A stretch of DNA of 64,000 nucleotides from Candidatus Dadabacteria bacterium (lineage in GTDB: Bacteria; Desulfobacterota_D; UBA1144; Nemesobacterales; CSP1-2): assembly GCA_963805855.1 (NCBI GenBank), contig CAWDVW010000007.1, forward strand, positions 608,001-672,000, in the 5' to 3' direction. Positions 20,268 to 34,872 of the stretch are shown piece after piece. How positions within the stretch are numbered: position 1 is the stretch's first letter; each line of letters opens with the position of its first letter. A program made the translations under genes and the position numbers. The notes under the pieces are model-generated. The model was not told the DNA's origin, searched no databases, and saw only the letters and a list, made by a program, of their open reading frames with translations.

Positions 20268-20435
20268 CACACTGAGTTTATCGAAGTGTGATTGAGAAAA
20301 AGCGAGCGGGTCGGGGTTTGCTTATTTATTTGTTAAGCTTTTTCGTAATGCATCCGCATTTTTTCTCGCATGGTCTTGTCGAGCCGGCCCCGGAGCGACG
20401 TAAGTGGTTCACCCTTCGACAGGCTCAGGGTGAAC
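20268..20435. repeat. Inverted pair of REP-like family C palindromes
   Basis: CACACTGAGTTTATCGAAGTGTG (20268-20290) and GTTCACCCTTCGACAGGCTCAGGGTGAAC (20407-20435). Confidence 0.8.
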
Positions 20436-32254: not shown

Positions 32255-32980
32255 TCACGCGTTGAGCTTGTTGGCCAGGTCGATGAAGTCCGTAGCAGTT
32301 ACGTCGAATGATGGATCTGTAATAAGATCGGGTTTTCCTTCGGGGCCAAATTCCAGAGGCCGGAGGACGAATGCCGTTTTGAATTTAACCCTCCTTGCTG
32401 CATGAAGGTCATCTTTGTGCGCTGCCACCATCATGACCTGCCCCGGCTTTAGCCCCAGCAGATCAGCCGCCGTCTGATAAACCTCTTTATCAGGTTTGTA
32501 GTGTTTCGCCAATTCGGACGATAATATACAGTCCCACGGCAGTCCCGCGTTCTTAGCCATGTTGACAAGCAAGGATACGTTGCCGTTGGAGAGAGTCGCC
32601 ACAATAAATCGTCGGCGAAGTCTTCTTAGCCCACGAATGGCATCAGGCCACGGCTTTAATCGATGCCATACACGATTCAGATCTTTTTTCTGGGTTTCGC
32701 TTAATTCTTTTATATTAAATTCTATAAGAAGGTCATCCAGGATCATGCGATGAATTTCGTCAATATTCATCCATGGCAATTTTCCATCACGAACCTTGTT
32801 CATTGCCGGCGCGTAGCCTCGGCGCCAGGCATCGGCAAATTCATCCCAGGCCAAACTTATTCCCTTGGATTTTCCGAGGAGAGTACACTCACGGATTATT
32901 GAGGTACGCCAATCGACGACAGTGCCGAACACGTCGAAGGCAAGCGCTTTGATAGAGGATATATCTGTTATTTGTTTCAT
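32255..32980 (-). CDS. Haloacid dehalogenase type II
   Basis: AFDVFGTVVDW, WHRLKPWPD, LSNGN, YKPD, MVAAH. Confidence 0.9.
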   Translation of the reverse strand: MKQITDISSIKALAFDVFGTVVDWRTSIIRECTLLGKSKGISLAWDEFADAWRRGYAPAMNKVRDGKLPWMNIDEIHRMILDDLLIEFNIKELSETQKKDLNRVWHRLKPWPDAIRGLRRLRRRFIVATLSNGNVSLLVNMAKNAGLPWDCILSSELAKHYKPDKEVYQTAADLLGLKPGQVMMVAAHKDDLHAARRVKFKTAFVLRPLEFGPEGKPDLITDPSFDVTATDFIDLANKLNA

Positions 32981-33139
32981 AACTTATTGTTCAAGTTAAC
33001 TCCATCGAAGGGAACAAAGCAATACCAAAAGATGGGATTGTTTCCTAGACCCTGCACTGAGGAATTATGTTAAAAAGGGGTTAGGTACAGACGGTTCCCT
33101 TCTTATAATTAAAAGGAAAAAAATAAGGAGGGAACCGTA

Positions 33140-34204
33140 ATGAATAGACAAAGTATAGATTACACAAATCAAGATTTTTTTCTAGGCATAGATGTGCATA
33201 AGAAGAGCTGGAAAGTAACGGTGAGGACTAACGGCATGGAGTTAAAGACTTTCTCCATGGATCCATCACCGGAGCAACTGTACGGATATATGCACAAGCG
33301 TTATCCGGGAGGAAACTATCACAGTGTGTATGAAGCAGGATTCTGTGGGTACTGGATTGATCGGGAGTTAAAGAGGTACGGGTTTAACAATATAGTAATC
33401 AATCCGGCAGATGTGCCTAGTACCCAGAAGGAGAAATCGACAAAGACCGACAAGGTGGATAGCCGTAAGCTGGCACGAGAGCTAGAGAATGGGTCATTGA
33501 GAGGGATATATGTACCGGATGAATTTCACCAACAATTGCGATCATTGTGCAGGCTGAGATTTAAGGTGGTACAGTCGCAAACTCGGCTTAAGAATCGGAT
33601 CAAGGGGTATTTAGCATTCTATGGTTATGTCATACCGCGCCATGATGAGATTGGTCACTGGTCTGGGGGATTTATAAGGTGGTTAAAGACATTAGAGTTT
33701 TCATACGGGATGGGTAGGGATTATCTTAGGCTATGTCTCGAGGAGCTAGAAAGTCATCGAAGGCGTTTAGCAGAGGTAGTGAAGTTGGTGCGGAAGTATT
33801 ATCGGGAATACGGGTTTGGGGAAGAGGTAAAGAATCTGCGTAGTGTGCCAGGGGTTGGTTTTGTAACAGCGATGACATTATATGGGGAACTGATGGATAT
33901 GAGTCGGTTCAGGAGTATAGACGATCTTGCTAGTTATGCGGGGTTAGTGCCATCGGTAAGTAGTTCTGGGGAGAGGGAGAGCACTCTGGGGCTCAGCTTT
34001 CGGCGTAACCGGTATTTACGGTACTTACTGATAGAGGCAGCGTGGGTAGCGATACGAGAAGATCCGGCTTTGGGGCATGTGTTTAGTCAATTGATCAGGC
34101 GGATGACCAAGCAGAAAGCGATAGTTCGGATCGCCAAGAAGTTATTGAACAGGATAAGATACGTGTGGAAGAATAAGGAGAGTTATGCTTATGGATTGAT
34201 TTGA
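33140..34204 (+). CDS. IS110-family DEDD recombinase/transposase
   Basis: GIDVHK, YEAG, KTDKVD (DEDD), VPGVG, YAGLVP..SSG (catalytic Ser), LIEAAW. Confidence 0.95.
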   Translation: MNRQSIDYTNQDFFLGIDVHKKSWKVTVRTNGMELKTFSMDPSPEQLYGYMHKRYPGGNYHSVYEAGFCGYWIDRELKRYGFNNIVINPADVPSTQKEKSTKTDKVDSRKLARELENGSLRGIYVPDEFHQQLRSLCRLRFKVVQSQTRLKNRIKGYLAFYGYVIPRHDEIGHWSGGFIRWLKTLEFSYGMGRDYLRLCLEELESHRRRLAEVVKLVRKYYREYGFGEEVKNLRSVPGVGFVTAMTLYGELMDMSRFRSIDDLASYAGLVPSVSSSGERESTLGLSFRRNRYLRYLLIEAAWVAIREDPALGHVFSQLIRRMTKQKAIVRIAKKLLNRIRYVWKNKESYAYGLI

Positions 34205-34214
34205 TAAGTAATAG

Positions 34215-34400
34215 GGACTGGATCTATGAAATCTCAAACAATAAAGTGTGGACCGCTATCGACTGGCTGCAAAGAAAATGTTTTACTGAGAGTGCGGCCA
34301 CAGGTTTGAGTGGTTTAATGAATTTAATGCAGCACTGCAAAGAGGCAGCTGACTGTTTATAACAGATTGATTCAAGATAGGATTTATTTACACATGAGAT
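34215..34400 (+). ncRNA. Putative bridge/seekRNA in the IS right end (boundaries approximate)
   Basis: Two stem-closed loops each containing CTGCAAAGA; guides TCGACTGGCT (34259-68) and ACTGAG (34285-90) match the target; ATAACAG (34359-65) matches the donor end. Confidence 0.75.
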
Positions 34401-34570
34401 ACATTACATAAAAAAGCACGAAGGGATTCGTTTGTTCAAAGTTAAAGTTTTCCCTAACATAACCCTTGACTTTTTACATAACAGCCAGTCGAAGTGCTCA
34501 CAATTGTAGATGTTAGATATTTCGTGGACAAAATCTAAAAAATAACAAATTTTCTGGAAATTTATTCATC

Positions 34571-34872
34571 CGTCATCCTCGAATGTTCCCCGCCAGGATC
34601 ATGCCGGGACAAGCTTAATCGGGGATCCATCGTTTAATTTTTTATTTTCTTTGTCTTGATACAAAGAAACAACCCTTCGACTGTGCTCAGGACAAGGGCT
34701 GTCAAAAAATTAGGAATTATTAAATCAATTCCTACAGCTAAAAATATTTAATCCAACCACAACCCCAAATCTTTTTTTAACGCTTCCGGAATTGATTCTG
34801 GTAATTTTTTGAATGCCCATTTAACATCTAAAATACTATCCCCGAATTATGTAAAATCCAGAGCAATGACAG
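34571..34872 (+). mobile_element. Family B element with CGTCAT...GCAATGACA ends and a family C insertion (34673-34691)
   Basis: tctttgtcttgatacaaagaaac, atttaatccaaccacaacc, ttaacgcttccggaattgattctgg shared with the 3.1 and 32 kb copies. Confidence 0.8.

What the first reader, a model, noticed from the sequence alone, without database searches (positions are those of the whole stretch)
33045..34500. RNA-guided IS110/IS1111 recombinase whose guide RNA matches the REP-like repeat it inserted into
Seen in sequence: removing the element at a shared AG (33060-61 / 34483-84) joins ...CCCTGCACTG-AG-CCAGTCGAAGTGC..., giving GCACTGAGCCAGTCGAAGTGC. This is an intact copy of the family C palindrome (compare 20268-20290, 2001-2023, 20407-20435). 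The non-coding right end contains TCGACTGGCT (34259-68), the exact reverse complement of the right flank plus core (AGCCAGTCGA). It also contains ACTGAG (34285-90), identical to the left flank plus core. Both sit in a loop closed by CTCAAAC/GTTTGAG and TGTGG-CCGC/GCGG-CCACA stems. Established knowledge: IS110-family DEDD recombinases use a bridge/seekRNA with target- and donor-binding loops; the IS621 core is CT, which equals AG on this strand. Inference: this is a natural bridge recombinase programmed against an abundant host repeat, and it is a candidate programmable tool.
Basis: partly seen in the sequence, partly recalled or inferred. Interest (0 to 1): 0.92.

Follow-up and report, generated by a model that had tools for sequence, protein, structure and literature searches.

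The report
RNA-guided insertion sequence in a REP hairpin

Summary
The element (33062-34484, counting one AG core) encodes a 354-aa DEDD recombinase that passes NCBIfam's "IS110 family RNA-guided transposase" model. It has IS1111-group anatomy: a 78-nt left end, a 278-nt right end and 11-nt subterminal inverted repeats. The genome holds three near-identical copies, each in ACTG-AG-CCWGTCGA. Six uninterrupted copies of that site fetched from two sister genomes read straight through where the element is inserted here.

A covariance model of the guide-bearing stem-loop hits 52 of 94 sources, always just 3' of the recombinase gene. Its stem covaries. Across about 30 relatives with different insertion sites, both guide segments track their own flanks (0 of 10,000 permutations each). 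A second stem-loop carries segments matching the element's own ends.

Three points need qualifying:
- The exact 14-bp target is rare. G000 has no free copy, against 4 and 9 in the sister genomes.
- The outer CTCAAAC/GTTTGAG stem is not conserved.
- No RNA evidence covers the non-coding end.

REP-targeting IS110/IS1111 elements with bridge/seekRNAs are published, so this is a new member of a known kind, of moderate-to-low interest.

The parts
33054..33061 (+). Left half of the interrupted REP-like hairpin (GCACTGAG). ACTG (33056-59) is the left target arm and AG (33060-61) the left copy of the core.
   Evidence: all three copies have ACTGAG here; contiguous with CCAGTCGAAG in uninterrupted sites.
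33062..34484 (+). The insertion sequence, 1423 bp counting one AG core. The boundary is ambiguous by the 2-nt core.
   Evidence: three copies, four differences inside the element; empty sites.
33062..33139 (+). Left non-coding end, 78 nt. 33062-66 (GAATT) is the donor arm proposed to pair with D1.
33065..33075 (+). Left subterminal inverted repeat (TTATGTTAAAA). It contains the -10-like TATGTT at 33066-71.
   Evidence: repeat I9: 11 nt, 91% complementary to 34471-81. Conserved in relatives.
33091..33138 (+). 5'-UTR hairpin (16-nt arms, 94% complementary). Its 3' arm covers the ribosome-binding site AAGGAGGG at 33125-32.
   Evidence: repeat I2. An equivalent hairpin with other letters is visible upstream of the gene in relatives.
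33140..34204 (+). Recombinase gene, 354 aa: DEDD RuvC-like domain plus the Transposase_20 domain.
   Evidence: PF01548 1.1e-16, PF02371 1.2e-22. NF033542, 216.8 bits against a cut-off of 140; conserved D18, E65, D104, D107 and GLVPSVSSSG.
34205..34482 (+). Right non-coding end, 278 nt, encoding the proposed bridge/seekRNA.
34247..34302 (+). Target-binding stem-loop. The stem is 34247-51 plus 34253-56 paired with 34294-97 plus 34298-302. It encloses the two guides and a small inner hairpin at 34269-81.
   Evidence: covariation; model R1 hits once per element copy.
34259..34268 (+). Guide 1 (TCGACTGGCT), complementary to the top strand of core plus right flank (34483-92).
   Evidence: family-wide covariation with right flanks.
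34285..34290 (+). Guide 2 (ACTGAG), identical to left flank plus core (33056-61), so complementary to the bottom strand.
   Evidence: family-wide covariation with left flanks.
34320..34327 (+). Proposed donor guide D1 (GAATTTAA). AAUUU at 34321-25 can pair with the element's first bases GAATT, with one G.U pair and no pairing to the core.
   Evidence: 24 relatives, 4.0 of 5 against 2.69 when permuted, 0 of 10,000. Weakest for this element itself.
34328..34357 (+). Donor-loop hairpin. The base stem is GCAG (34329-32) paired with CTGT (34353-56).
   Evidence: 100% paired in 43 relatives, with compensatory variants..
34359..34365 (+). Proposed donor guide D2 (ATAACAG), identical to the element's last bases plus core (34478-84).
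   Evidence: changes together with the right end in L040 and in L069, L070, L076 and L092.
34466..34471 (+). -35-like TTGACT. In a circle junction it would lie 17 nt from TATGTT (33066-71).
   Evidence: Read; no + strand promoter-like site in the integrated element. Inference.
34471..34481 (+). Right subterminal inverted repeat (TTTTTACATAA).
   Evidence: repeat I9..
34483..34497 (+). Right copy of the AG core (34483-84) and right half of the REP-like hairpin (CCAGTCGAAGTGC).

Best explanation
This is an intact, recently active IS1111-group member of the IS110 family, inserted in the loop of a REP-like hairpin. Its mechanism is inferred from the anatomy together with published work on the family, as follows.

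1. The element excises as a circle. Joining its ends would create a promoter: TTGACT, 17 nt, TATGTT.
2. That promoter would drive the recombinase gene and, on the same transcript, the 278-nt right end.
3. The right end folds into two stem-loops. The first presents guide 1 (34259-68), which pairs with the top strand of AG+CCAGTCGA, and guide 2 (34285-90), which pairs with the bottom strand of ACTG+AG. Together they specify a 14-bp site centred on the AG core.
4. The second stem-loop presents short segments matching the element's own left end (D1) and right end plus core (D2).
5. The DEDD recombinase, bound to this RNA, would exchange strands at the AG core. That leaves AG on both sides and no target duplication.

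Shown here: the protein family, three copies in one site type, empty sites, the conserved covarying RNA structure, and guide-to-flank covariation.

Inferred: that the RNA is made, that it binds the protein and directs insertion, and that the junction promoter works.
For: Protein. Pfam PF01548 and PF02371 both match. NCBIfam NF033542 'IS110 family RNA-guided transposase' scores 216.8 bits against a cut-off of 140. There are weak sequence matches to the solved ISCro4 and IS621 transposases.

Copies. Three copies differ at four positions, encode identical proteins, and all lie in xxACTGAG|IS|AGCCWGTCGAA.

Empty sites. The pattern ACTGAGCCWGTCGA occurs 0 times uninterrupted in G000, 4 times in G001 and 9 times in G002, with reversed-pattern controls at 0. 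All 6 of 6 fetched sites read through the insertion point.

RNA. Model R1 hits 52 of 94 sources, each on the + strand downstream of the gene, and hits exactly three times in the whole genome, once per copy. Stem covariation gives 0 of 500 shuffles.

Guides.
- Guide 1 against the right flank, 29 de-duplicated loci: mean 6.0 of 8 matches against 2.75 for cross-pairs, 0 of 10,000 permutations.
- Guide 2 against the left flank, 30 loci: 4.17 of 6 against 1.60, 0 of 10,000.

Donor loop. D1 against the left end gives 0 of 10,000. The base stem is 100% paired in 43 loci. D2 changes with the right end in L040 and in the L069 group.

IS1111 traits. Right end 278 nt against left end 78 nt. Subterminal repeats of 11 nt. 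Guide order and the GL-P----SG motif as described in PMC11187229 and PMC11208160.
Against: - No RNA evidence for the non-coding end. The three metatranscriptome runs gave only 151-181-nt contigs inside the gene at depth about 2, which could be DNA carry-over.
- The right end as a whole folds no better than shuffles (z = 0.09), and the local fold is only z = -1.71.
- Guide 2 alone is not significant in this one sequence (292 of 2000).
- Two of the three copies (B and C) have one mismatch to guide 1, T for A in the spacer.
- 5 of 29 relatives fit guide 1 poorly: L083, L016, L008, L034 and L049. In L049 this is partly misalignment.
- In this element D1 pairs with at most 5 nt and not with the core, so donor recognition is the least secure part.
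- No Rfam family matched the region at E up to 10.
Confidence: 0.9

Rival explanations
1. The match between the right end and the flank is read at the DNA level. The protein would recognise the element's ends and the REP hairpin directly, and the internal segments would be leftover copies of target or terminal sequence rather than RNA guides.
For: No transcript of the non-coding end was seen. D2 and its neighbourhood (TGACTGTTTATAACAG) resemble the true right end (TGACTTTTTACATAACAG). In L016 the element ends at the position where D2 sits in this window.
Against: The two target segments lie on opposite senses, split by a hairpin, inside a stem that keeps pairing through compensatory changes. 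That pattern points to selection on an RNA fold. They track unrelated target sequences across about 30 relatives. For IS1111-type elements the RNA has been shown to co-purify with the transposase and to be essential (PMC11187229, abstract and sections read).
Confidence: 0.04
2. The element is a real RNA-guided insertion sequence but is now stalled or decaying in this genome.
For: There are no uninterrupted sites with 0 or 1 mismatch to the 14-bp target in G000. There are 25 sites with 2 mismatches, against about 17 expected from a shuffle. No + strand promoter-like site lies in the integrated copy. The relative L010 is frameshifted, and L016 has lost the donor loop.
Against: All three copies have intact and identical reading frames and differ at only four positions. 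That argues for recent movement. Lack of free sites limits spread but does not inactivate the machinery.
Confidence: 0.3
3. The guide-to-flank match in this window is a coincidence, helped by low-complexity REP sequence.
For: The 6-nt guide 2 match alone is common in shuffles (292 of 2000).
Against: The 10-nt match spanning the core arose in 1 of 2000 shuffles, and both matches together in 0 of 2000. The same relation holds in relatives with non-REP targets.
Confidence: 0.01

Closest known systems
IS1111-group elements with seekRNA: ISEc11, ISPa11, ISKpn4, ISPst6 (Siddiquee et al. 2024, PMC11187229; abstract and sections 6, 9, 13 and 14 read)
   Same: - DEDD transposase of about 340-350 aa with a GL-P----S/TG motif.
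- The long non-coding region lies downstream of the gene.
- Subterminal inverted repeats.
- Two short RNA segments match opposite strands of the target and overlap at the insertion point, with the top-strand complement 5' of the bottom-strand complement.
- Natural reprogramming among relatives.
   Different: Sequence relationship to those named elements was not measured here. The hosts of the relatives found are Ignavibacteria, Bacteroidota and Calditrichota-type metagenome genomes, not Proteobacteria. The target is a different repeat. No biochemistry exists for this element.
IS621 bridge RNA system (Durrant et al. 2024, PMC11208160, passages and section 12 read; structure paper PMC11208158, search listing only)
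   Same: One RNA with a target-binding loop and a donor-binding loop. Each loop has two guide arms that pair with opposite strands around a 2-nt core. The natural target is a REP element. A promoter is completed at the circle junction.
   Different: In IS621 the RNA is in the left end, upstream of the gene, the core is CT, and the subterminal repeats are only 2-3 bp. Here the RNA is in the right end, the core is AG on the gene-sense strand, the repeats are 11 nt, and the donor segments flank the base of a hairpin rather than lining a simple internal loop. Durrant et al. note this last feature for many IS1111 orthologues. Sequence similarity to the IS621 protein is weak (E = 0.0046).
ISPpu9 and ISPpu10 of Pseudomonas putida (PMC12288879 and bioRxiv 10.64898/2026.03.19.712850; only the abstract openings in the search listings were seen)
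   Same: IS110-family elements present in several copies, all inserted into repetitive extragenic palindromic or conserved intergenic repeats. ISPpu9 has a small RNA gene downstream of the transposase.
   Different: ISPpu9 has extra orphan copies of its small RNA gene. Here the RNA model hits only the three element copies. The host phylum and the repeat are different.

Membership tests
IS110 family (RNA-guided DEDD transposases) | [quoted passage not shown] | tested here: met
   PF01548, 1.1e-16, residues 15-160. D18 (GIDVHK), E65 (YEAGF), D104 and D107 (KTDxxD) are conserved in the 8-sequence alignment. Which residues are catalytic is recalled by analogy with IS621, not tested.
IS110 family (RNA-guided DEDD transposases) | C-terminal PF02371 domain with the conserved Ser-Gly | tested here: met
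   PF02371, 1.2e-22, residues 231-310. GLVPSVSSSG with invariant G268, P271 and G277.
IS110 family (RNA-guided DEDD transposases) | Passes the curated whole-protein model | tested here: met
   NF033542 equivalog, 216.8 bits against a cut-off of 140.
IS110 family (RNA-guided DEDD transposases) | Site-specific insertion with a short core on both sides and no target duplication | tested here: met
   three copies in one site type, AG on both sides; uninterrupted sites carry a single AG.
IS110 family (RNA-guided DEDD transposases) | Non-coding RNA with a target-binding loop whose arms covary with the flanks | tested here: met
IS110 family (RNA-guided DEDD transposases) | Donor-binding segments that covary with the element's ends | tested here: inconclusive
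   Supported across the family. In this element D1 pairs with at most 5 nt and not with the core. D2 is invariant in most relatives because the right end is.
IS110 family (RNA-guided DEDD transposases) | The RNA is made, binds the recombinase and is required for movement | not testable with these tools
   One search gave RNA-library contigs only inside the gene, at depth about 2.
IS1111 group | The longer non-coding region lies downstream of the gene | tested here: met
   278 nt on the right against 78 nt on the left.
IS1111 group | Subterminal inverted repeats of 7-17 bp | tested here: met
   repeat I9: 11 nt, 91%, starting 4 nt in from the left end and ending 1 nt short of the right end. Conserved in relatives.
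IS1111 group | The top-strand-complementary segment lies 5' of the bottom-strand-complementary segment | tested here: met
   34259-68 precedes 34285-90. The criterion comes from PMC11187229.
IS1111 group | The transposase clusters with IS1111-type transposases in a phylogeny | not tested
REP (repetitive extragenic palindrome), as the target | A short hairpin-forming repeat in many copies | tested here: met
   41 plus 74 copies of CTGAG-N4/5-TCGAA, most with flanking complementary arms. Whether each copy is extragenic was not checked.
REP (repetitive extragenic palindrome), as the target | Association with a RAYT-type tyrosine transposase | tested here: inconclusive
   10 Y1_Tnp matches in the genome. 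No link to this particular repeat was tested.

The most novel reading that the evidence does not exclude
The element and the host's REP family may be diversifying together in the same habitat.

- In this genome every site that fits the guides is already occupied. IS-free sister species keep 4 and 9 free sites.
- One marsh metagenome holds a close variant of the guide loop with two changes in guide 1 (C34263T and G34266A). Those changes would redirect it from the CCAG-spacer REP to the sibling TCAA-spacer REP. That REP exists intact in the same metagenome, and G000 has one exact copy of the predicted 14-bp site.

If this is real, it is natural guide reprogramming that hops between spacer variants of one repeat family. 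The clade, with at least 52 loci carrying the RNA, would then offer many matched guide-and-target pairs for an IS1111-type architecture whose donor segments flank a hairpin base rather than line an internal loop.
Probability: 0.3. Interest if true: 0.5.

Novelty: new member of a known kind. Interest (0 to 1): 0.33.

Why it matters
The finding is a clean, fully annotated natural example of an IS1111-type bridge/seekRNA element outside the Proteobacteria. It has defined target and donor segments, empty sites, and about 30 relatives that give matched guide-and-target pairs. That is useful raw material for anyone mining orthologues for genome-writing tools or studying how these elements choose repeats.

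It does not change what is known. RNA guidance, REP targeting, the right-end location of the RNA and subterminal repeats are all published for this family, and NCBI's annotation model already names the protein correctly.

The modestly interesting extras are two. There is also a hint of natural retargeting between REP spacer variants.

Tried and rejected
- **Rfam.** A search of 32900-34700 at E up to 10 returned only chance-level hits. None lies in the right end.
- **The rebuilt 21-mer.** Searching the window for it at 3 mismatches or fewer found nothing. The family had to be defined by the looser CTGAG-N4/5-TCGAA pattern.
- **Folding the whole right end.** It gave no signal (z = 0.09).
- **Orthologous empty sites.**
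  - Copy A: the locus in G001 has no element, but the hairpin there is degenerate.
  - Copy B: G002 lacks both the element and the small repeat it sits in, though an intact target-type REP lies 60 nt away.
  - Copy C: the left flank is not adjacent in G001 or G002.
  - The empty-site evidence therefore rests on paralogous uninterrupted copies.
- **A second donor guide.** A literal reverse complement of core plus left end is not in the right end. The D1 assignment came only from the family comparison.
- **RNA runs.** They show no cover of the non-coding end. Contigs cannot show absence, so this counts neither way.
- **Protein alignment.** The first attempt failed because L010 is frameshifted. 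L010 was dropped from the protein alignment but kept for the RNA and flank analysis.
- **Regex anchoring.** The first regex pass missed many loci: 27 of 94 found, and the D2 regex was wrong. Model R1 and corrected patterns replaced them.
- **Not run.** Structure prediction, complex prediction and the protein atlas would not have changed the verdict.
- **Supplements.** Supplementary files of the papers were not seen. Their lists of IS1111 bridge-RNA structures might already include this clade.
Full report
**The observation.**
- AG is at 33060-61 and 34483-84.
- TCGACTGGCT at 34259-68 is the exact reverse complement of AG+CCAGTCGA at 34483-92.
- ACTGAG at 34285-90 equals 33056-61.

In shuffles of the right non-coding end, a core-spanning reverse-complement match of 10 nt arose 1 time in 2000. 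The 6-nt same-sense match arose 292 times in 2000. Both together arose 0 times. The guide 1 and flank pair is also the strongest inverted repeat in the region (I1).

The whole 280-nt end is not unusually stable (z = 0.09).

**The element.** The reading frame 33140-34204 encodes a 354-aa protein with PF01548 (DEDD_Tnp_IS110) and PF02371 (Transposase_20). It passes NCBIfam NF033542, "IS110 family RNA-guided transposase", at 216.8 bits against a cut-off of 140. It has weak sequence matches to the solved ISCro4 and IS621 transposases.

The conserved acidic residues (D18, E65, D104, D107) and the GLVPSVSSSG motif are present. That motif is the GL-P----S(t)G pattern that Siddiquee et al. give for IS1111-type proteins.

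The left non-coding end is 78 nt and the right is 278 nt. An 11-nt subterminal inverted repeat lies at 33065-75 and 34471-81 (I9). These are the traits that separate the IS1111 group from the IS110 group (PMC11187229; PMC11208160).

More than 5,800 database proteins match at E of 1e-30 or better, out of 7,999 candidates scored. Where named, they are called IS110 family transposase or IS110 family RNA-guided transposase.

**Copies and insertion site.** The genome (3.11 Mb, 9 contigs) holds three copies. They differ at four positions inside the element and encode identical proteins. All three are flanked by xxACTGAG on the left and AGCCWGTCGAA on the right. W is A in the window copy and T in the other two, so those two have one mismatch to guide 1.

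The site is the loop of a hairpin repeat with the consensus stem, CTGAG, N4-5, TCGAAG, stem. The genome has 41 copies with N4 and 74 with N5.

The exact 14-bp target is rare. G000 has no uninterrupted site with 0 or 1 mismatch. It has 25 sites with 2 mismatches, close to the roughly 17 expected from a shuffle.

Two sister genomes of the same genus gave no match to the recombinase. They hold 4 and 9 uninterrupted copies of ACTGAGCCWGTCGA, with reversed-pattern controls at 0. I fetched 6 of those 13 sites, and all six read ...ACTGAG|CCAGTCGAAG... without a break. One of them (L124) matches both flanks of the window copy. This is the empty-site evidence. The element adds 1423 bp and one extra AG, with no target duplication.

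**The RNA and the covariation test.** Relatives were collected from one-genome-per-species contigs (11 loci), from related genomes and from metagenome contigs (the best 80 of 496 confirmed). Their hosts, where named, are Ignavibacteria, Bacteroidota and Calditrichota-type metagenome genomes.

Their right ends share one architecture:
- a stem built on GACCGYT ... TGCGGC;
- a variable segment;
- a small hairpin starting GCA;
- a second variable segment ending in AG.

On 24 sequences the stem is 94.2% paired with 44 double-change cells. No shuffle out of 500 reached that, and the slid controls fall to 25-60% paired.

A covariance model of this stem-loop hits 52 of 94 sources, always on the + strand directly after the gene. 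It hits exactly three times in the whole genome, once per copy.

For loci where an element end and its flank could be found, results were as follows.
- Guide 1 matches core plus right flank at a mean of 6.0 of 8 positions in 29 de-duplicated loci, against 2.75 for cross-pairs (0 of 10,000 permutations).
- Guide 2 matches the left flank at 4.17 of 6 in 30 loci, against 1.60 (0 of 10,000).
- Six loci match 8 of 8 for guide 1. Five fit poorly: L083, L016, L008, L034 and L049. L049 is partly a misalignment.
- Kin share ancestry, so the permutation figures overstate independence. The targets are nonetheless plainly different sequences, and the relation is complementarity, which shared ancestry does not by itself produce.

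The segment order and the overlap at the core are those reported for IS1111-type seekRNAs.

**The donor side.** Downstream of the first stem-loop, all relatives have a second hairpin. Its base stem (GCAG with CTGY) is 100% paired in 43 loci, with compensatory variants such as GCGG with CCGT and CCAG with CTGG.

The 8 nt before this hairpin (D1) are complementary to the first bases of the left end. For example, left ends starting AAG, AAC, AAA, AGA and GTG go with CTT, GTT, TTT, TCT and CAC. The mean is 4.0 of 5 against 2.69 when permuted, 0 of 10,000, over 24 loci.

The 7 nt after the hairpin (D2, ATAACAG) equal the right end plus core. D2 changes with the right end in L040 and in the L069, L070, L076 and L092 group.

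In some relatives D1 runs through the core (...CT before TGCAGC). In others, including this window, it stops short of it (...AA before TGCAGC). Here D1 (34320-27) can pair with only about 5 nt. I regard the donor assignment as probable for the clade and tentative for this element. Durrant et al. state that in many IS1111 orthologues the donor-binding nucleotides lie in a multi-loop rather than a simple internal loop, which fits.

**Expression.** No sigma-70-like promoter lies on the + strand in the integrated element. Joining the ends would place TTGACT (34466-71) 17 nt from TATGTT (33066-71). That is 9 of 12 consensus matches, enough to meet the scan's own criteria. Both hexamers are conserved in relatives. 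A promoter completed at the junction is described for this family. Here it is an inference.

Three marsh metatranscriptome runs hold short contigs inside the gene only, at depth about 2. This shows neither transcription nor its absence for the RNA.

**Comparison with what is known.** The element works like, and by every feature I could test is a member of, the IS1111 group of the IS110 family. REP targeting by this family is long known (references cited in PMC11208160; ISPpu9 and ISPpu10 abstracts in the listings).

Differences from IS621:
- the RNA is at the right end;
- the subterminal repeats are 11 nt;
- the core is AG on the gene-sense strand;
- the donor segments flank a hairpin base.

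**Verdict.** Novelty is low: a new member of a known kind.

Two things are mildly new. One metagenome contig (depth about 3) carries a two-base change in guide 1 that would retarget it to the TCAA-spacer variant of the same repeat. That variant repeat exists intact in the same run, and G000 has one exact copy of the predicted 14-bp site. The variant's own flanks were not seen, so this stays a lead.

Noticed in passing
window 34485-34870: The roughly 390 nt right of the element is itself a multi-copy mosaic repeat. It gives 51 matches in G001, 64 in G002 and 30 in G004. The element therefore sits at the edge of a larger repeat unit, not in an isolated hairpin.
   Followed up: partly
L002 (G000:C7, copy B) about 1400-1510 and 2931-2990, against L121 (G002:C13) about 780-950: Copy B lies in a small REP-like unit that is itself inserted in the loop of another, oppositely oriented hairpin repeat. 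G002 has that outer hairpin uninterrupted. This makes three nested levels of insertion.
   Followed up: partly
L016 (G004:C68) 986-1070: An 84%-identical relative has lost everything between the donor-loop TGAC and the right-end TGAC, so its right end sits where D2 should be. Its flank starts AG|CGAAGCG, 5 nt short of the site its guide 1 predicts. It is a decayed or aberrantly recombined copy.
   Followed up: no
window 33483-33602 (run X17, record 1): One 151-nt contig from an RNA library joins position 33602 inside the recombinase gene directly to the right flank of copy B, starting at GTCGAAC. It has depth 2.1 and three differences from the window. It could be a truncated copy in another strain or a chimera.
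   Followed up: no
window 34208-34310 (run X8, record 9): A variant of the guide stem-loop at depth about 3 carries C34263T and G34266A in guide 1, predicting the target AG+TCAATCGA. A second contig changes G34246 to C, which would add a base pair to the stem.
   Followed up: partly
window 33091-33138: A strong hairpin (16-nt arms, 94% complementary) sequesters the recombinase's ribosome-binding site. Relatives have a hairpin at the same place with different letters, which suggests conserved translational control.
   Followed up: partly
G000 genome-wide, for example C7:605298-605765 (just before the window), C5:922437-922904 and C2:79951-80382: Four further IS110-family DEDD genes of other types, and ten Y1 (IS200/IS605 or RAYT-type) transposase matches, occur in the genome.
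   Followed up: no
genome-wide repeat CTGAG-N4/5-TCGAAG (for example window 20269-91): The conserved loop-proximal part of the hairpin would form C-G and U-A pairs, then tandem G.A/A.G mismatches, then G-C. This is a kink-turn-like arrangement. Several relatives of this element in other genomes (L016, L020, L049, L055) also have guides ending in CTGAG, so they target the same kind of repeat.
   Followed up: no
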